From contig JAYGFR010000144.1 of NCBI GenBank assembly GCA_046581755.1, positions 1 to 28,666 of the forward strand: DNA of 28,666 nt. Direction: 5' to 3'. Positions 373 through 8,424 of the stretch are shown here, one piece after another. The position numbers were made by a program, and so were the translations under genes. Positions within the stretch are counted from its first letter, which is position 1. The number at the start of each line of letters is the position of its first letter. The notes under the pieces are model-generated. The model searched no databases, was not told where the DNA came from, and was given only the letters and a program-made list of their open reading frames with translations. The stretch is from Nitrospinota bacterium. GTDB taxonomy: Bacteria > UBA8248.

Positions 373-399
373 TTACCCGTGCTTACCTACTGCTTACCC
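373..399. repeat. Short direct repeats TGCTTACC x2 (380-387, 391-398) plus TTACCC (373-378); possible integrase arm-type sites
   Basis: Repeats seen directly about 50-70 nt past the tRNA 3' end; function is inferred. Confidence 0.4.
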
Positions 400-401
400 A
401 G

Positions 402-438
402 AAAAAACAACGGGTCAGGGATTACCCGTAACCCGTTG
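402..438 (-). terminator. Intrinsic terminator downstream of tRNA-Ala
   Basis: Minus strand CAACGGGTTACGGG-TAAT-CCCTGACCCGTTG followed by TTTTTT. Confidence 0.7.
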
Positions 439-445
439 ATTTATT

Positions 446-521
446 TGGTGGAGGCGTGGGGGCTCGAACCCCAGACCTCGTGGGTGCGATCCACGCGCTC
501 TCCCAACTGAGCTACGCCCCC
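446..521 (-). tRNA. tRNA-Ala(CGC)
   Basis: Minus strand GGGGGCG TA GCTC AGTTGGGA GAGC G CGTGG ATCGCAC CCACG AGGTC TGGGG TTCGAGC CCCCA CGCCTCC A CCA: 76-nt cloverleaf, G3:U70 Ala identity pair, anticodon CGC, encoded CCA. Confidence 0.97.
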
Positions 522-535
522 CAAAAGGATTTATG

Positions 536-564
536 AAATTAGGTCAACGCTTGGCTGGTGTCAA
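536..564 (-). promoter_or_regulatory. Sigma70-type promoter of tRNA-Ala
   Basis: Minus strand TTGACA (564-559), 17 bp, TAATTT (541-536), 14 nt upstream of the tRNA 5' end. Confidence 0.7.
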
Positions 565-580
565 GCGATAGAAAATTCTC

Positions 581-629
581 AAAAAGGGAGGGCTGGTGAG
601 TAAGCCTACGAGGCTACCCACCAGCCCTC
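581..629 (-). terminator. Last hairpin of the array followed by a U-tract; probable terminator of the nrdJ/array transcript
   Basis: Minus strand GAGGGCTGGTG...CACCAGCCCTC-CC-TTTTT, just upstream of the tRNA promoter. Confidence 0.55.
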
Positions 630-870
630 GGCCCGTCGCAGAGTCCGCCCGTTACCCCCACGACGGGATACTACTTTTTTTTGGCGAGGACCGGAAGGCA
701 AGCCTCCGAGGCCGCCTTCCGGTCCTCATCCTGGTGCAGAGTCCGCCCGTTTGCCCCACACCAGGAAATCTTACTTCCACAAATTGGGGAGGGCCGGCAG
801 ACGAACCGCCTAGGCCGTTTGCCGGCCCTCGTCCCGCCACAGAGTCCGCCCGTTTCCCCCTGTGACGGGA
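586..870 (-). ncRNA. Tandem array of three ~85-nt two-hairpin structured units (unassigned RNA motif) downstream of nrdJ
   Basis: Invariant CAGAGTCCGCCCGTT at 639-653, 737-751 and 840-854, each inside a stem of different sequence. Each is flanked by a 42-nt hairpin (588-629, 686-727, 789-830). Stems show compensatory changes, and G-U pairs favour the minus strand. Confidence 0.7.
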
Positions 871-882
871 AATATCGTCAAA

Positions 883-3800
883 TCACGAACATCCACTTGT
901 CGAGCCGCATGTCATGCATTTGAGGCAAGTGCCATTTCGAACAAGAGAAAAGGACCCACATTCCGAACAAGCCTCCCCTTCGTATCCTTTGGCCTTGGCT
1001 TCTACGCGGACATTTGAATTGGCCGGTTCGGAAATAGCTCTCACCTCGGACCCAGGAACCGCCTCTTGAGTCCCCTGATCAAAAGATCGCCTTTCTGGTG
1101 CGAGATGAAGATGTTCGCTCCGGGGAAGGTCTGGGCTCACTCCCTCGCGCAAGGTTTCAATCACTTCTTCTTCCTCGGCGTCGAACTCGGGAATCTCGTC
1201 CTCGGGCCGGCCGATGGTGTCACCGCGTAAATCCTCAGGCTTGACCTGGACGAGATCGTTCCGGCCGAGGTAGCTGAGCGCCAACTCGCGGAAAATGTAG
1301 TCGATGATGGAAGTGCTCATTTTAATATGTTGATTGCCCTCGACGATGCCGCCCGGCTCGAACCGGGTGAACACGAAGGCGTCCACGAATTCGTCCAGCG
1401 GCACGCCGTGCTGGAGGCCGAGCGATATCGCGATGGCGAAACAGTTCATCAGGCTTCGAAAGGCGGCGCCTTCCTTGTGCATATCGATGAATATCTCGCC
1501 AATCGTCCCGTCGGTGTATTCCCCGGTCCGGAGATAAACCTTGTGACCCCCGACGATGGCCTTCTGGGTGTATCCCGCCCGTCGGGAGGGAAGCTTGCGG
1601 CGGCGCGATTGGTATAAGTAGCGCCGGACGATTTTCTGCGCCACGCGGACGGGGCCGCTTTCGGCCGAGCCCTTCTCGTCGCTATCGAGCCCATCGAACA
1701 AGTCGACCGAAAACTGCGCCGATAGCGGCTGGCTGAGCTTGGAGCCGTCCCGGTAGAGGGCGATGGATTTGGTCATCCGGTTCCAGGACTCCATGTGGAG
1801 GCCCTTGATTTCTTCGATAGTCGCCTCGTTTGGCAGATTAATCGTCTTGCTGATCGAACCGGAGATGAACGGCTGCGCCCCGGCCATCATCCGCACATGG
1901 GCCATGGGGCTGATGTACCGGGTCCCTTCCCGGCCGCACTTGCTCGCGCAGTCGAATATTTCATAGTGCTCTTCCTTGAGGTGCGGGGCGCCCTCCAACA
2001 TCATCATTCCGCATATGTAGCTGTTTGCTTCCTTGATCTGGTCCGGAGTGAAGCCGATGGCTTCAAGGATGCTCAGGTTCCAGTCGGCGAGTTGCTCATC
2101 GTTGAGGCCCAGTTTTTCCCGGCAGAAGTCTTCGCCAAGAGTAATTTTGGTGATGGCAAACTGAAGCTCAAACGCCCCCTCGAGCGCCTCTTCCACCGAT
2201 TCGAGCGCTTTCTCGGTAAACCCTTTTTCGAGGAGCGATTCCGGGTTGATATGAGGCGCATTTTTGAGGCTTCCCCGGCCCCGGCAGTAGGCGACGATCT
2301 CCTTGATCTGTTCTTCGTCGTAGCCCAGCCTTCTGAGGGCCGCCGGTACGGAGTGATTGATTATTTTGAAGTATCCGCCGCCGGCCAGTTTCTTGAACTT
2401 CACAAGTGCGAAGTCGGGTTCGATTCCGGTGGTGTCGCAATCCATCACAAGACCGATCGTGCCGGTGGGGGCGATGACGGTGGCCTGGGCGTTGCGGTAA
2501 CCGTGCCGCTCGCCCAGTTCAAGCGCCTCATCCCAAGCTTTTCGCGCGGCTGATAGAAGGTAGGGTTGACATAGGCTGGGGTCGATCCCGACGGGTGTTT
2601 TGGAAATGCCTTCATATTCCGCAGGAGATGCCGCATACGCCGCCCTGCGGTGATTTCTCACGACGCGCAGCATATCTTCCCGGTTGGCATCGAAGCGCTC
2701 AAAGGGCCCCAGTTCCGAAGCCATTTCCGCACTCGTTGCATACGAGAAACCCGTCATGATGGCCGTGAGCGCGCCGCACCATGCCTCGGCCTGAGGCGAG
2801 TCGTATGGAATTCCGAGCACCATGAGCAGGGTGCCCAAGTTCGCGTAGCCAAGGCCCAGAGTGCGGTACAGGAAAGACCTTTTGGCGATATCCCGGCTCG
2901 GAAATTGGGCCATCAGGACGGAAATTTCGAGTACGACCGTCCAGAGACGGATGGTGTGCCTGTACTCGTCCACCCGGAATCCGCCCGATTCCGTGTCGAG
3001 GAACCGCATGAGATTCATCGAGGCGAGGTTGCAGGCCGTATTGTCGAGGAACATATATTCCGAGCATGGGTTGGAGGCGTTGATTCGGCCTTCCGCCGGA
3101 CAGGTATGCCAATCGTTGATAGTGGTGTCGAATTGAAGGCCCGGGTCCGCGCTGCACCAGGCGGCATATCCGATCTGGTCCCACAAATCCTTGGCCTGGA
3201 GCTCCTTCACGACTACGCCGTCCGTACGGCGGGTCAGCTTCCAAGTCCCGTCGTCCTCGACGGCTTTCATGAATTCATCCTTCAGGCGAACCGTGTTGTT
3301 CGAGTTTTGGCCCGAGACGGTGGCGTATCCTTCGCCTTCCCAGTTGGTGTCCAGTTCATCCAGAAGGATTTCCTTGAACCCTTGCTGGGCGAGTTGAAGC
3401 GCCCGCTGGATGTAGCTGCCCGGGACGCCGGAATTGCGAGCGGCACGGACCGCTTTGCGGAGGTCGGGATTTTCTTCCGGTTGATAGAGCCCGCCGTTCA
3501 ACTCGGCCTGCTTGTTCGGATCGCAAGCGGCGATGATGGCGTTCATATGCCGGTTGCACAACATGCTGCCGGATACCAAGGCGGCTACTTTTTGTTCCTC
3601 TTTCACCTTCCAGTTGATGAATTGTTCAATGTCGGGATGATCGGCATCGAGGATGACCATTTTCGCTGCGCGGCGGGTGGTGCCCCCCGATTTGATGGCG
3701 CCCGCCGCGCGGTCGCCGATTTTCAGGAAGCTCATCAGACCGGAGCTTTTCCCTCCTCCGGAGAGGGGCTCGTTCTCGCCGCGCAGGTTCGAGAAATTGG

Positions 3801-4497
3801 AACCCGTGCCCGAGCCAAACTTGAAGATGCGCGCCTCGCTGACCCAGAGGTCCATGATGCCGCCTTCGTTCACGAGGTCGTCACTGACGGACTGGATAAA
3901 GCAGGCGTGAGGCTGCGGCCTCTCGTATGCATTTTGCGATCGGTTCACTTCTCCGGTGTCGGGGTCGCAGTAGTAATGACCCTGGGCTGGGCCCTCGATT
4001 CCGTAGGCCCAGTGGAGGCCGGTGTTAAACCACTGAGGGGAATTGGGCGCGGCTATCTGGTTGGCAAGCATGTAGGTAATTTCATCGTAAAACGCCCTGG
4101 CATCCTCTTCGCTGTCGAAGTAATTGTTTTTCCATCCCCAATAGGTCCAGCAACCCGCCATTCGGTGAAATAAAACGCGCGAATCCCGTTCCATGCCCAA
4201 CCGCTCGTCCTCTGGAAGAGAGGAAAGAGCTTCTTCATCTGGTATGGAACGCAGGAGCCAATCGGGGACGCCCTCTTCGGGCACTTTTTTGAGCTTCGCT
4301 GGGACCCCCGCTTTCCGGAGGTATTTTTGGGCGATGATATCGACGGCAACCTGGGTCCAGTTTTCGGGAACTAGGATGTCTTTGGCTTCGAATACGATGG
4401 TGCCGTCTGGATTGATGATTCGGGAGATGCGGGGAACGAAGTTGACTTCCCTGCGGGAGCTTTTCCCGGAATGAGTGAAAAGTCGTTCAAATTTCAT
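883..4497 (-). CDS. nrdJ: Vitamin B12-dependent (class II) ribonucleotide reductase, single chain with C-terminal TSCPD-like and Zn-ribbon domains
   Basis: 1204 aa; [33 protein letters not shown] and APTGTIG motifs; C-terminus CSECG...[19 protein letters not shown]. Confidence 0.97.
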
Positions 4498-4684: not shown

Positions 4685-4714
4685 AAGATATTACACTAGA
4701 TATGGGGTTGTCAA
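4685..4714 (-). promoter_or_regulatory. Sigma70-type promoter of nrdJ
   Basis: Minus strand TTGACA (4714-4709), 18 bp, TATCTT (4690-4685) in an AT-rich intergenic region. Confidence 0.6.
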
Positions 4715-4779
4715 GAATAATTTATGATAATCCACAACAACAGGTGGCATTATTCACATTTTATCCCCAGATATTGTGG
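4693..4779. promoter_or_regulatory. NrdR boxes (4693-4708 and 4764-4779 strong; 4732-4747 weak)
   Basis: ACACTAGATATGGGGT, TCCCCAGATATTGTGG and CCACAACAACAGGTGG versus the NrdR consensus acaCwAtATaTwGtgt; located upstream of an RNR gene; 4732 and 4764 are 32 bp apart. Confidence 0.75.
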
Positions 4780-4854: not shown

Positions 4855-5814
4855 TTACGGGGAGGAACTTGCGGTTTTTGTTTGCCAATAGGCCAGGGTA
4901 TCTTTCAAAGTTTGCTCGAAAGGGATTTCGGGGCGCCAGCCGGTGGCGTGGGCGAGTTTTGAGTAGGTTGCGGAAAATACACTGGAATCGTTGGGTCTTT
5001 TCTTGGGGTCCTGCTCGATGGAAATGGAAACTTTCGCCAGCGACAGGAGTATATTCAGGGCTTCTCGAATCTTTATCGAGTGGCCGGAGCAAACGAGATA
5101 AGCCTCTCCGGGGGTTCCATGTTCGGCCGCGAGGGCATAGGCCCGGACAACATCGCGTACATCGGAAAAATCCCGCCAGGACTCCAGATTGCCGGTTCGC
5201 ACTATCGGTTCTTTTTCTCCGGCTTCGATTTCCGATATCTGCTTTGCCCAATCGGGTATGGCGAATCCGGTGGCTTGGCGCGGGCCCGCATGGTTCATCG
5301 GCCGCATGCGCACAAGGTGCATTCCATTGGCTTTTGCGATTTGTTCTGAAGCCAGGTCCAGGGCAAGTTTGCTGATGGCATAGGGGTTTTTGGGAGCGAA
5401 GGGGATTTCTTCGTTGATCTCGCCCGAAAGTTCGCCGCCACCGTATATTTCCGCCGAGCCAACGAGAAGGATGCGCACCTGGCTTCCGAGCGCCCTGCAC
5501 GATTCGAGCAGGTGAATCCCTGCGATGAGGTTGGTCTCGAACGTCTTGGCCGGATCGTCCCATGATGCGGCGACAGAACTCTTGGCCGCCAGATGAAATA
5601 CGCGATCGGGGCGGTTGTCTTCGATAATGGCTCGTGTGTTTTCCTTGTCGAGCAAATCGCTCCGGTAGAGAGAAATTCGATCGATGATGTGCTTCAGGTT
5701 ATCCGGCGCGATGTTCGGGAGGGAGATGCCGGAGACTTCATGGCCCTGCGCTAGAAGATGCTCGGCCAAATGACTTCCCGCGAAACCGGCGATGCCCGTA
5801 ATCAGGGCTTTCAC
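4855..5814 (-). CDS. NAD(P)-dependent epimerase/dehydratase, GDP-4-keto-6-deoxymannose reductase (Rmd)-like
   Basis: GTG start at 5814 overlaps the upstream TGA (GTGA coupling); ALITGIAGFAGSHL Rossmann motif, YAISK, NHAGPRQ, GNLESWRDFSDVRD; 319 aa. Confidence 0.85.
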   Translation of the reverse strand: MKALITGIAGFAGSHLAEHLLAQGHEVSGISLPNIAPDNLKHIIDRISLYRSDLLDKENTRAIIEDNRPDRVFHLAAKSSVAASWDDPAKTFETNLIAGIHLLESCRALGSQVRILLVGSAEIYGGGELSGEINEEIPFAPKNPYAISKLALDLASEQIAKANGMHLVRMRPMNHAGPRQATGFAIPDWAKQISEIEAGEKEPIVRTGNLESWRDFSDVRDVVRAYALAAEHGTPGEAYLVCSGHSIKIREALNILLSLAKVSISIEQDPKKRPNDSSVFSATYSKLAHATGWRPEIPFEQTLKDTLAYWQTKTASSSP

Positions 5815-6770
5815 AAACGATCCCGCCAGTAGTCCAGAATGTCCTGAAGGGTCTGCTCGAAGGGTATTTCCGGTTTCCAGCCGGTAGCTTCGCGGAAATT
5901 CGATGAATCCCCCAGAAGGATCGGCACATCCGAAGGCCGCATCCGGGCGGGGTCTTCTTTCACCTCGATGGGCGTGGCCGAGCGGGCGATCAGCATATCC
6001 AGTATTTCTTGGATGGCCCAGGCGGTGCCGGAGGCGATGTTGTACACCTCGCCCGCCTCGCAATGTTGAAGCGAGAGCCAGTAGGCCTTCACTACATCGC
6101 GCACGTCGGTAAAATCCCGCTTGGCTTCCAGGTTTCCCACATAGATCACGGGCTCGCGCCTCCCCTTTTCGGCCTCGACGATTTGCTTGGCGAAATCGCT
6201 GCAAACGAAAACATCCCCACGACGAGGACCGGTATGGTTAAATGCGCGGGTGCGGACGAGTTTCATGCCGTAGCTTTGAAAAAATTGATAGGCGAGCAGG
6301 TCGGTGCCAACCTTGCTCACAGCATAGGGGGAAAGGGGCCTGAGCGGGTTGGATTCCCGGATAGGGGTTTCCTCCGGGTGGACGAGACCGTATTCCTCGC
6401 TGCTTCCGGCGATCTGGATCCAGGGGTCGATGCCGGCCTGGCGTACGCCTTCGAGGAGGTGGAGGGTGCCGATAATGTTGGTGTGGAGGCTTTCTTCTGG
6501 GGCCGTCCAGGAGGCGGGCACAAAGCTTTGGGCCGCCAGGTGAAAAATCCTCGTGGGCCGGATTTCGGCGAGAATCCGGTTGACGGAACCCTGGTCGCGC
6601 AGGTCGCACTCGAGGATTGGGACCCGGGAGGTGAGGTGATCGATATGCTCGGTTCGGCTGCGCCACCGCCGCATGCCGAATATTTCGATATCCTTTAGGG
6701 TGATGAGGTAGTCCACCAAGTGGCTGCCGACGAACCCCGTGATTCCTGTAATTAGAACGCGTTCTGCCAC
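5811..6770 (-). CDS. gmd: GDP-mannose 4,6-dehydratase family protein
   Basis: GTG start at 6770 after AGGAGAAG RBS; LITGITGFVGSHL, HLAAQSFV, SSEEYG, SPYAVSK, FNHTGPRRG, GNLEAKRDF; 319 aa. Gmd versus Rmd assignment is uncertain. Confidence 0.8.
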   Translation of the reverse strand: MAERVLITGITGFVGSHLVDYLITLKDIEIFGMRRWRSRTEHIDHLTSRVPILECDLRDQGSVNRILAEIRPTRIFHLAAQSFVPASWTAPEESLHTNIIGTLHLLEGVRQAGIDPWIQIAGSSEEYGLVHPEETPIRESNPLRPLSPYAVSKVGTDLLAYQFFQSYGMKLVRTRAFNHTGPRRGDVFVCSDFAKQIVEAEKGRREPVIYVGNLEAKRDFTDVRDVVKAYWLSLQHCEAGEVYNIASGTAWAIQEILDMLIARSATPIEVKEDPARMRPSDVPILLGDSSNFREATGWKPEIPFEQTLQDILDYWRDRL

Positions 6771-6805
6771 CGCTTCTCCTTTCAGGGTGCCCGAATGTGG
6801 CCCGA

Positions 6806-6835
6806 ATCCTACTGGGCGCGGCCTTGGCAGGTCAA
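6806..6835 (-). promoter_or_regulatory. Putative sigma70 promoter of the GDP-sugar gene pair
   Basis: Minus strand TTGACC, 18 bp, TAGGAT, about 35 nt upstream of the GTG start. Confidence 0.45.
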
Positions 6836-7020
6836 TGGACCACCGCACGAGAAGAGCGCCCTGAGTCATCCCCGGCTGCCCGCCGAAACTCGGGGGAGCG
6901 GGGGGGAATAGGGATAGGGAGCAGACAGTTTTCGTCTCCAGGAGTATTCTTAGGCGGGATGGCCGAAAGAAAATATTTACAAAATCATCGATTCCGGCGC
7001 TGCCGGATGCGGGAGAAACC

Positions 7021-8424
7021 ATGACAGATTCCAGCTACGATTTTGCTGTCATCGGGGGCGGCCCTGCGGGCTATGTCGCGGGTGTCCGGGCGGCCCAGCG
7101 GGGCGTGAAATCCATCGTTATCGAGCGGGACGCCATGGGCGGCGCGTGCCTCAACTGGGGATGCATCCCCAGCAAGAGCCTTATCCGCGCGGCCGATGTG
7201 TTGAGGACCATCAAAAACGCCTCCGCCTTCGGTATCGAGATCAAAGGTGAGGTCATCGCCAACCTGGCCGAAATGATCGACCGCAAGGACAAGATCGTGG
7301 CCGGTTTGGTCCGGGGAATCGGCGGCCTCTTTAAAGCGCACCGGGTCGATCATCTCGCTGGAGAAGCATCGATCGAGGAGTCCGGCCGGATCCGAATCCG
7401 GCTCAAGGAGGGCGGCGAGGAGGAGATCCGGGCCGAGAAAATACTCATCTCCACCGGATCCCGCCCGGCCCAGATTCCGGTTTTCCCCATTGACGGCAAG
7501 CGGATCATCTCCAGCGATCAGGCGGTACACCTCAAAGAACTCCCAGGCCGTCTCCTCATCATCGGAGCGGGGGCCATCGGGTGTGAATTCGCCTGTTTTT
7601 ACCGCGAAATGGGGGTGGATGTGACTGTGGTCGAATTGCTCGACCGGGCGCTACCGCTGGGCGATGAGGATGTATCCAAGCTGATCGGGCGGGAGTTGAA
7701 AAAACAAAAGATCAAGCTTCTGACCGGGAAGAAAATTCTCAAGGTCGAACAAAGCGGCGACGATATGGTTGCGCATATCGAGGGCAGCGACGATATCGCC
7801 TCGGACCTGGTACTCGTATCCATCGGGAGGACCTTCAATACCGACGGCCTGGGTCTGGACAATATCGGCTTGGAGCTTGGACCCCGGGGCGAGATCTCGG
7901 TGAACGAGAAGATGGAGACCAATGTCCCCGGCGTGTACGCGGCCGGAGATGTGATTGGGGGGCTCATGCTCGCCCATGTGGCTTCGGCCGAGGGGATCGT
8001 CGCCGCCGAAAACGCGTCGGGGGGAGATTCCTCAATGGACTACCTTGGGATTCCGGCGGGTATCTTCACCCATCCCGAGGTGGGCGTCGTCGGCCTTACC
8101 GAAGGGGAGGCCAGGGCAAAGGGCCTCGATGTGCGCGTGGGGCGCTTTCAGATGCGGGGGCTCGGGAAGGCGCACTCGGAGCGGGAGATAGCCGGAGAAG
8201 TGAAGGTCATTGCCGGAGCGGCCGATGATGTTATTTTAGGGGTGCATGTGGTGGGATCCCATGCGGCCGACCTGGTACACGAGGCGGCGGTCGCGATGCG
8301 CAACGGTATTTCGGCCTCCGGCCTCGGCGGGACAATCCATTCTCATCCGACGCTTTCCGAGGCCATCATGGAGGCCGCCCACGATGTGCACGGGACCGCC
8401 ATTCACAATCCCCCGAAAAAATAG
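7021..8424 (+). CDS. lpdA: Dihydrolipoyl dehydrogenase (E3)
   Basis: GGGPAG FAD motif, GGACLNWGCIPSK redox disulfide, GAGAIG NAD motif, HPTLSE; 467 aa. Confidence 0.95.
   Translation: MTDSSYDFAVIGGGPAGYVAGVRAAQRGVKSIVIERDAMGGACLNWGCIPSKSLIRAADVLRTIKNASAFGIEIKGEVIANLAEMIDRKDKIVAGLVRGIGGLFKAHRVDHLAGEASIEESGRIRIRLKEGGEEEIRAEKILISTGSRPAQIPVFPIDGKRIISSDQAVHLKELPGRLLIIGAGAIGCEFACFYREMGVDVTVVELLDRALPLGDEDVSKLIGRELKKQKIKLLTGKKILKVEQSGDDMVAHIEGSDDIASDLVLVSIGRTFNTDGLGLDNIGLELGPRGEISVNEKMETNVPGVYAAGDVIGGLMLAHVASAEGIVAAENASGGDSSMDYLGIPAGIFTHPEVGVVGLTEGEARAKGLDVRVGRFQMRGLGKAHSEREIAGEVKVIAGAADDVILGVHVVGSHAADLVHEAAVAMRNGISASGLGGTIHSHPTLSEAIMEAAHDVHGTAIHNPPKK

What the first reader, a model, noticed from the sequence alone, without database searches (positions are those of the whole stretch)
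586..870. Unassigned three-unit structured RNA array downstream of nrdJ: covarying stems, fixed geometry, invariant loop
Seen: three units with periods of 98 and 103 nt, starting 13 nt after the nrdJ stop. On the minus strand each unit has two hairpins. Hairpin A has a stem that differs in each copy but stays paired (TCCCGTCACA/TGTGGCGGGA; TCCTGGTG/CACCAGGA; CCCGTCG/CGACGGG) and encloses GGGG-n-AACGGGCGGACTCTG with the 15-mer invariant. Hairpin B is exactly 42 nt in all three copies (789-830, 686-727, 588-629), has compensatory swaps (GAGGGCCGG/CCGGCCCTC; GAGGACCGG/CCGGTCCTC; GAGGGCTGG/CCAGCCCTC), and has a bulged U under a short GCC apical stem. The 15-mer lies at the same offset (9 intervening nt) from hairpin B each time. 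Linkers are short and AT-rich, and only the last unit ends in a U-tract. Most plus-strand A-C mismatches become G-U pairs on the minus strand, so the RNA is probably co-oriented with nrdJ. Inference: structure and loop are under selection while stem sequence drifts, the opposite of REP or recent tandem repeats. This fits a multicopy sRNA or protein-binding RNA array processed from the nrdJ 3' UTR, and would thus be under NrdR control. I do not recognise it as any known family. It is the best candidate for an undescribed system here.
Basis: partly seen in the sequence, partly recalled or inferred. Interest (0 to 1): 0.9.

Follow-up and report, generated by a model that had tools for sequence, protein, structure and literature searches.

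The report
Kissing RNA pair at nrdJ tail
Behind this bacterium's gene for making DNA building blocks (nrdJ) lie three copies of a conserved two-hairpin module whose unchanging loop is the exact complement of a bulge in a second conserved hairpin encoded elsewhere in the same bacteria, so the two likely dock as RNAs by a loop-bulge 'kiss' that would tune the enzyme's messenger RNA.

Summary
The array is real. Three two-hairpin units follow the nrdJ stop. One to four units follow nrdJ in all 37 family genomes where that flank is assembled, and none occur in 9 other genomes of the phylum or behind 80 outgroup nrdJ genes. Stems covary, G-U bias fixes the nrdJ strand, and the 12-nt loop carries an invariant CGGGCGG. 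This scan noted the array before in at least 6 other genomes.

New here is a candidate partner. Searching for the loop's complement found a second, unlinked, single-copy ~115-nt RNA gene (G000:C262:~1347-1460) with a conserved promoter-like site. Its long hairpin displays YCGCCCG-A as a one-sided bulge. It occurs in 39 of 41 other family genomes, plus one truncated copy. In 36 genomes with both, the 7-bp pairing is perfect in 28, ends in G-U in 7 and has one mismatch in 1. The geometry matches a branched kissing loop, and the phylum lacks Hfq.

Pairing is inferred, not shown: both sides are nearly invariant, so there is no compensatory change, and 16S rRNA also carries the 7-mer. Neither RNA has an Rfam match. 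Best reading: a dedicated small RNA docks on multi-site 3' modules and sets nrdJ mRNA decay.

The parts
883..4497 (-). nrdJ, long class II (B12-dependent) ribonucleotide reductase, 1204 aa; the only RNR found in the genome
   Evidence: Pfam PF08471, PF02867, PF12637; one hit per genome; class I beta 0 of 5 and class III 0 of 5 genomes of the genus
832..870 (-). unit 1 hairpin A, 13-bp stem; loop presents CGGGCGG at 846-852
789..830 (-). unit 1 hairpin B with apical CCU-NGG-RGG-type cap (CCUAGGCGG here)
729..766 (-). unit 2 hairpin A; CGGGCGG at 743-749
686..727 (-). unit 2 hairpin B
632..667 (-). unit 3 hairpin A; CGGGCGG at 645-651. All three loops are complementary to the bulge CCGCCCG of the partner RNA outside the window (G000:C262:1410-1416, + strand; hairpin 1398-1458; promoter-like site 1311-1340)
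588..629 (-). unit 3 hairpin B, followed by U5 at 581-585; possible terminator here, U-tract not conserved
536..564 (-). TTGACA-17-TAATTT promoter-like site of tRNA-Ala; suggests the tRNA is transcribed separately from the array
   Evidence: read from sequence; similar site in relatives; the strict scanner did not call it
446..521 (-). tRNA-Ala(CGC), a neighbour, not part of the element
   Evidence: within 200 nt of the last loop in 26 of 37 genomes
4732..4779 (-). pair of NrdR boxes with 16-bp linker (6 of 6 and 4 of 6 key positions, C4 and G13 in both)
   Evidence: against the positions given in PMC13584703; same pair in G007 and G020
4693..4714 (-). third NrdR box (6 of 6 key positions) abutting a TTGACA hexamer of the nrdJ promoter

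Best explanation
The array is one to four conserved two-hairpin modules in the 3' tail of nrdJ, and its invariant loop likely serves as a docking site for a separately encoded small RNA whose bulge is its exact complement, a contact predicted to set the lifetime of the nrdJ message. Shown: both elements, their folds, their opposite strands, the 7-nt complementarity and their shared family range. Inferred: the partner (~115 nt: a small 5' hairpin, an AU-rich linker and a ~60-nt bulged hairpin) is made from its own sigma70-type promoter. Its CCGCCCG bulge pairs with the CGGGCGG loop as a 7-bp branched kissing loop, without Hfq. Kissing helix, hairpin A stem and the partner's inner stem would stack into one long helix, and one partner binds per module, so module number sets dose response. 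Most speculative: occupancy changes access of RNase III or a single-strand endonuclease to the AU-rich linkers, adding a post-transcriptional layer to NrdR repression. Hairpin B's conserved cap is predicted to bind a protein that reads or stabilises the complex.
For: Found by prediction. The complement of the loop, searched in four AT-rich relatives, gave one non-array site shared by all four (30 of 36 sites fetched). Three control 8-mers gave none shared by three or more genomes (59 sites). An independent bulged-hairpin scan of G000 ranked the orthologue first of 4446 CCGCCCG sites, and the three array loops are the top three hairpin-loop displays of CGGGCGG among 4446 sites. The partner is in 39 of 41 other family genomes at E<1e-9, plus a 3' half cut by a contig end in G006, and in 0 of 9 other genomes of the phylum. 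Partner stems covary (9 of 22 pairs). G-U vs A-C counts are 78 vs 7 on the CCGCCCG strand and 269 vs 10 for the array. A TTG-17/18-GAAAAT-type site points at the partner in 35 of 41 rows vs 52 of 8200 shuffles. Pairing in 36 genomes: 28 perfect, 7 terminal G-U, 1 mismatch. Both 7-mers are mostly predicted single-stranded (median 0.93 and 0.91). The NAA-7N-A loop and 7N-A bulge resemble the 2A-6N-1A loop and unpaired bulge A of solved bKLs (PMC8457670). Hfq 0 of 51, RNase III 41 of 42.
Against: No compensatory double change links loop and bulge: both are nearly invariant, and C-to-U is also the commonest mutation. G010 has an uncompensated central C-to-A. The 7-mer also occurs once in 16S rRNA and in two tRNA genes shared by two relatives, so conserved RNAs can hold it by chance. 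In the bulge scan 4 of 41 control 7-mers (2 sites) scored as high. In G000 itself three bulge bases are predicted partly paired (0.16-0.22 unpaired), and only 27 of 41 partner rows exceed 0.7. Co-occurrence is not independent, since both elements are family-wide. The promoter pattern was written after seeing the data, and G000 misses it by one base. Nothing here shows an effect on mRNA stability or its direction.
Confidence: 0.5

Rival explanations
1. Same kiss, opposite logic. The modules are cut out of the nrdJ tail as ~85-nt RNAs and act as a multi-copy sponge that titrates the partner RNA when NrdR lifts repression, releasing the partner's other (protein or RNA) target.
For: AU-rich linkers between units, and copy number varying 1-4. 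Precedent: CcsR1-4 are cut by RNase E from a 3' UTR (PMC8034643); SroC-type sponges (PMC8383071).
Against: No other conserved unpaired RNA target of either 7-mer turned up in the AT-rich relatives. One RNA-run contig spans all three units and the nrdJ 3' end, though contigs cannot show single transcripts.
Confidence: 0.2
2. The modules are protein-binding sites (IRE- or CsrB-like) and the partner is an unrelated sRNA; the complementarity is coincidence.
For: Hairpin B's conserved cap is not explained by the kiss. The G010 mismatch is uncompensated. A GC-rich 7-mer recurs in conserved RNAs.
Against: The match covers the partner's whole conserved bulge, on the strand fixed independently by G-U bias and promoter. 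Controls gave 0 of 3. CsrA-type GGA is in only a minority of hairpin B caps.
Confidence: 0.17
3. The loop pairs with the CCGCCCG site near the 3' end of 16S rRNA (an immature or idle small subunit), and the partner is a decoy for it.
For: 16S of G010 and G015 holds one such site. The A before the 7-mer (71 of 74 units) could add an eighth pair there if a U follows the site (U recalled, not shown by a call).
Against: One match in ~1550 nt is expected by chance roughly one time in five (my estimate). The site is paired in helix 44 of mature subunits (recalled). The site is universal but the array is family-restricted.
Confidence: 0.06
4. A DNA-level repeat (REP/BIME, attC-like site, MITE) or just stacked terminators.
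For: Palindromic units; small ORFs are inserted next to the array in one genus.
Against: One locus per genome. Strong strand bias. Invariant loop with drifting stems. Outgroup nrdJ genes end in ordinary short terminators.
Confidence: 0.03

Closest known systems
Branched kissing loop (bKL) motif, engineered and natural (PMC8457670; passages read)
   Same: An apical loop pairs with a one-sided bulge. Loop purines flank the pairing bases on the 5' side with one A on the 3' side, and one unpaired A follows the bulge bases.
   Different: 7 bp rather than the designed 6. It would form in trans between two separately encoded bacterial RNAs, one repeated in an mRNA tail. The paper's natural intermolecular examples are T-box/tRNA and phi29 pRNA.
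CcsR1-4 'cuckoo' RNAs of Rhodobacter sphaeroides (PMC8034643; passages read)
   Same: Tandem two-hairpin modules in a 3' UTR, conserved loop sequence, AU-rich cut sites between copies.
   Different: CcsR loops both carry anti-Shine-Dalgarno CCUCCUCCC and lie behind a DUF1127 gene. Here the loops are G-rich and unequal, the host gene is nrdJ, and the complement is one dedicated ncRNA.
S. aureus RNAIII-rot kissing complexes; 3'-UTR-derived sponges SroC and chb (PMC8383071; passages read)
   Same: RNA-RNA recognition through GC-rich loops, RNase III as a possible effector, and a 3' region that binds an sRNA.
   Different: Those targets are 5' UTR or RBS sites, or single unstructured sponge sites. 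Here there are 1-4 structured sites after the stop codon, and no sequence similarity.
Iron-responsive elements in the transferrin-receptor 3' UTR; ColE1 RNAI-RNAII kiss (both recalled, not read)
   Same: Multiple 3' hairpins that set mRNA stability; a 7-bp kissing helix.
   Different: IREs bind a protein and are eukaryotic. RNAI/RNAII are cis-antisense and go on to a full duplex, whereas cofolding predicts no strand exchange here.

Membership tests
Any Rfam family (array) | score at or above gathering threshold | tested here: not met
   0 hits at gathering (its fast filters also missed the tRNA). With permissive filters only the tRNA passes; the best other hits are generic hairpins far below cut-off.
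Any Rfam family (partner) | score at or above gathering threshold | tested here: not met
   No hit on the element at E<=1 in 8 loci. SRP RNA and 6S RNA lie elsewhere in 5 of 5 genomes.
CcsR/cuckoo RNAs | CCUCCUCCC in both hairpin loops | tested here: not met
   loop inventories vs PMC8034643
CcsR/cuckoo RNAs | tandem two-hairpin units in a UTR | tested here: met
CcsR/cuckoo RNAs | RNase E processing into single units | not testable with these tools
   only assembled contigs were served
Branched kissing loop | apical loop complementary to a one-sided bulge, both single-stranded | tested here: met
   exceptions are the G010 mismatch and partial self-pairing in G000
Branched kissing loop | compensatory change between loop and bulge | tested here: inconclusive
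   7 genomes C-to-U (G-U kept), 1 uncompensated mismatch, no double change in 36
Branched kissing loop | physical complex with coaxial stacking | not testable with these tools
   needs gel shift, probing or a structure
REP/BIME/MITE | many dispersed genomic copies | tested here: not met
   3 exact 15-mers, all in this array; model hits only here
CsrB/RsmZ-type sponge | repeated GGA displayed in short hairpin loops (consensus recalled) | tested here: not met
   hairpin B caps carry GGA in a minority; NGG, G or U variants dominate
Hfq-dependent sRNA | Hfq in the genome | tested here: not met
   0 of 51 genomes of the phylum; control genomes ring
NrdR regulon (host gene) | two 16-bp boxes, 15-16-bp linker, C4/G13; nrdR present | tested here: met
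   binding itself not tested

The most novel reading that the evidence does not exclude
A two-gene, all-RNA recognition system of a new kind. A stand-alone bulged-hairpin RNA and 1-4 receptor modules on the tail of the cell's only ribonucleotide reductase message assemble through natural trans branched kissing loops into a multi-subunit RNA complex, with hairpin B as a protein or ligand arm. This controls dNTP supply without Hfq, the bacterial counterpart of multi-site 3'-UTR targeting.
Probability: 0.35. Interest if true: 0.93.

Novelty: new variant of a known kind. Interest (0 to 1): 0.8.

Why it matters
Bacterial sRNAs are mostly known to act at 5' ends with a chaperone. A dedicated, pre-folded sRNA docking on repeated structured sites after the stop codon of an essential gene, in a phylum without Hfq, would be a distinct regulatory layout. 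It would also be a natural example of a motif mainly known from RNA nanotechnology. It turns an orphan RNA array, flagged repeatedly without a function, into a two-oligonucleotide experiment with a built-in compensatory-mutation test. Both RNAs survive in 2-Mb AT-rich genomes of the family, which suggests the cell needs them. The search trick (look for the complement of an invariant loop in AT-rich relatives) can be reused for other orphan motifs.

Tried and rejected
Expression: RNA-run contigs cover the array (X1 527-1005; X2, X3, X5 in part) and, in 1 of 4 runs, the partner (X1, L122:1232-1479). They give no strand, ends or level, DNA carry-over is not excluded, and no silent stretch was laid, so this is presence only. 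X2 and X5 both stop at 734 with adapter ends; not used.

Distant homologues: none behind 80 metagenomic nrdJ genes at 49-59% identity (one E=0.022 hit ~1 kb from the stop). Viral pattern hits (9 and 8) and three distant genome hits fail both models.

Link to tRNA-Ala: rejected as the defining tie, since it is close in only 26 of 37 genomes.

Small DUF6566-like ORFs beside the array in one genus: Pfam hits are below cut-off and there is no homologue in G000, so they are not core and there is no type III toxin-antitoxin reading.

SECIS-like readthrough: stops vary TGA/TAA/TAG and there are no in-frame stops.

Extended pairing of the partner's 5' arm with the base of hairpin A, and of its linker with hairpin B's cap: seen in some genera only, and cofolding predicts no strand exchange.

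Partner read on the other strand as a 3'-UTR motif of its neighbour: rejected by G-U bias and promoter direction. The first G000 blast lead (C235) was coding and chance. The weak R2 hits in G006 and G018 are not the element.

Literature: ten searches listed no paper on either RNA. The library lacks most subscription papers, and motif catalogues in supplements were not searched.

Full report
OBSERVATION. On the minus strand each folds into two adjacent hairpins with z-scores of -4.6, -7.6 and -5.8, better than the plus strand in every case. Hairpin A's stem runs on through GGGG/CUCU, leaving a 12-nt loop. The upstream gene is a 1204-aa class II ribonucleotide reductase, the only RNR found. The downstream gene is tRNA-Ala(CGC), with a promoter-like site of its own. 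Rfam has no family for the array. The genome holds no other copy.

RANGE. A covariance model from 38 units finds the element in 36 of 41 other genomes of the family and 0 of 9 other genomes of the phylum. Public records carrying the motif are titled Nitrospinota, Nitrospinaceae or Ca. Tectomicrobia bacterium; I recall this as the UBA8248 lineage, which no call shows. Of the five misses, two have contig ends 38 and 7 nt after the nrdJ stop and three have no assembled nrdJ. So 37 of 37 assessable genomes have it. Copy number is 1 (5 genomes), 2 (9), 3 (18) or 4 (5). The first stem starts about 6-27 nt after the stop in 34 of 37; three genomes of one genus have insertions. tRNA-Ala is close in only 26 of 37. 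None of 80 metagenomic nrdJ genes at 49-59% identity carries the element.

SELECTION ON RNA STRUCTURE. On a plain MAFFT alignment 93.7% of cells pair, and 17 of 28 pairs show changes on both sides. On 74 distinct model-aligned units the figures are 96.4% and 23 of 28 (fitted to the structure, and kin are not independent). G-U outnumbers A-C 269 to 10, which fixes the nrdJ strand. Only CGGGCGGAC is invariant (74 of 74). Hairpin B ends in a conserved CCU-NGG-RGG cap.

A PARTNER. An invariant, exposed, all-GC loop suggests base-pairing. I searched its complement in four AT-rich 2-Mb genomes of the family, where it is rare (36 sites, 30 fetched). Besides the array itself, one site is shared by all four. 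It is intergenic and sits as a one-sided bulge in a long hairpin. A bulged-hairpin scan of G000 ranked one site first of 4446, at C262:1409. It proved to be the orthologue: blastn finds only this ~60-nt hairpin in 29 more family genomes. A second model finds it in 39 of 41 other family genomes at E<1e-9 and in 0 of 9 outside. G006 holds its 3' half at a contig end. G018 lacks it along with nrdJ and the usual neighbour. It is single-copy except in G065, a bin with 9% contamination. Neighbours change (PEP-hydrolase-like, NYN domain, Na+/H+ antiporter) but always lie on the opposite strand, so it is nobody's UTR. G-U vs A-C is 78 to 7 for the CCGCCCG strand and its stems covary (9 of 22 pairs; that alignment included 9 reverse-strand rows). 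A TTG-17/18-GAAAAT-type site 53-76 nt upstream points at it in 35 of 41 rows against 52 of 8200 shuffles. That pattern is post hoc and G000 differs by one base, at C262:1311-1340. This predicts a ~115-nt transcript. It is not SRP or 6S RNA and has no Rfam match.

THE FIT. In 36 genomes holding both, the seven loop bases pair with the seven bulge bases perfectly in 28, with one terminal G-U in 7, and with one central mismatch in G010. Both 7-mers are mostly predicted unpaired. The layout, NAA-7N-A loop and 7N-A bulge, resembles the 2A-6N-1A loop and single unpaired bulge A of crystallised branched kissing loops (PMC8457670, passages). Hfq is missing from 51 of 51 genomes, which suits pre-folded recognition; RNase III is in 41 of 42. 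Controls: three permuted 8-mers gave no site shared by three or more of the four genomes (59 sites). In the G000 scan 4 of 41 control 7-mers, at 2 sites, scored as high, so that scan alone is not decisive.

AGAINST. No compensatory double change exists, because neither side varies enough. G010's mismatch is uncompensated. The same 7-mer occurs once in 16S rRNA and in two tRNA genes shared by two relatives, where it lies in stems (read by eye). In G000 three bulge bases are predicted partly paired. Co-occurrence within one family is not independent evidence. Hairpin B's cap stays unexplained. RNA-run contigs cover both loci but show neither strand nor ends. I put the physical pairing at about 0.7.

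MECHANISM. Shown: two conserved structured elements on opposite strands, with complementary exposed 7-mers. Inferred: NrdR controls transcription of nrdJ and its tail (nrdR 5 of 5; boxes with a 16-bp linker, judged by PMC13584703, passages). The partner kisses each module. Speculative: the docked, stacked helices change nuclease access at the AU-rich linkers and so the half-life of the message. I prefer this (0.5) to the sponge version (0.2) because no other conserved unpaired target turned up. Protein docking with chance complementarity gets 0.17.

KNOWN SYSTEMS AND NOVELTY. It is built like the CcsR array (PMC8034643, passages) but fails its loop test. It would work like RNAIII-type kissing or SroC-type sponging (PMC8383071, passages) but is a member of neither. 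Ten paper searches listed nothing on either RNA; supplements with motif catalogues were not searched and may bear on this. Earlier agents of this scan reported the array in at least six other genomes with partner unknown; look-ups for the partner found nothing. Verdict: two undescribed RNA families forming a likely new variant of trans RNA-RNA regulation, directly testable with two short transcripts.

Noticed in passing
G000:C262:1311-1460 (L122), + strand: The partner ncRNA gene itself: a conserved promoter-like site, a variable 5' hairpin, and a ~60-nt bulged hairpin. It is worth a family entry of its own whether or not the kiss holds.
   Followed up: yes
L013:1113-1370, L037:1231-1482 and 1921-2163, L045:1159-1413, L049:951-1205 and 1585-1953: In one genus, small 80-120-aa ORFs weakly like DUF6566/DUF365 (below cut-off) sit directly after the array and, in two genomes, also between nrdJ and the array; one insertion goes with loss of hairpin A of the first unit.
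   Followed up: partly
window 389-446 and G000:C398:3239-3291, C323:247-278: An inverted repeat and terminator-like hairpin follow tRNA-Ala. Matches to the tRNA's 3' end and flank lie on other contigs, as expected of integration-site remnants; an IS-like gene follows the array in G065.
   Followed up: no
L016, L017, L061 (second unit); L086:4384-4451: Half-units persist: three genomes keep an orphan hairpin B without hairpin A, and G010 keeps a hairpin A with truncated B.
   Followed up: no
window 734: Contigs of two RNA runs from different studies (X2, X5) both end at 734 with adapter sequence, inside the 3' arm of unit 2 hairpin A; possibly a processing or priming hot spot.
   Followed up: no
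window 4855-7022 (minus): Two tandem GDP-mannose-4,6-dehydratase/epimerase-family genes lie upstream of the nrdJ promoter region.
   Followed up: no
phylum-wide: The family has a long ~1200-aa NrdJ, while family f4 has a ~950-aa form and f2/f3 only distant hits; array and partner track the long form's family.
   Followed up: partly
window 1-28666: The Rfam scan at gathering threshold missed a 60-bit tRNA that the permissive scan found, so its blank is weak on its own.
   Followed up: yes
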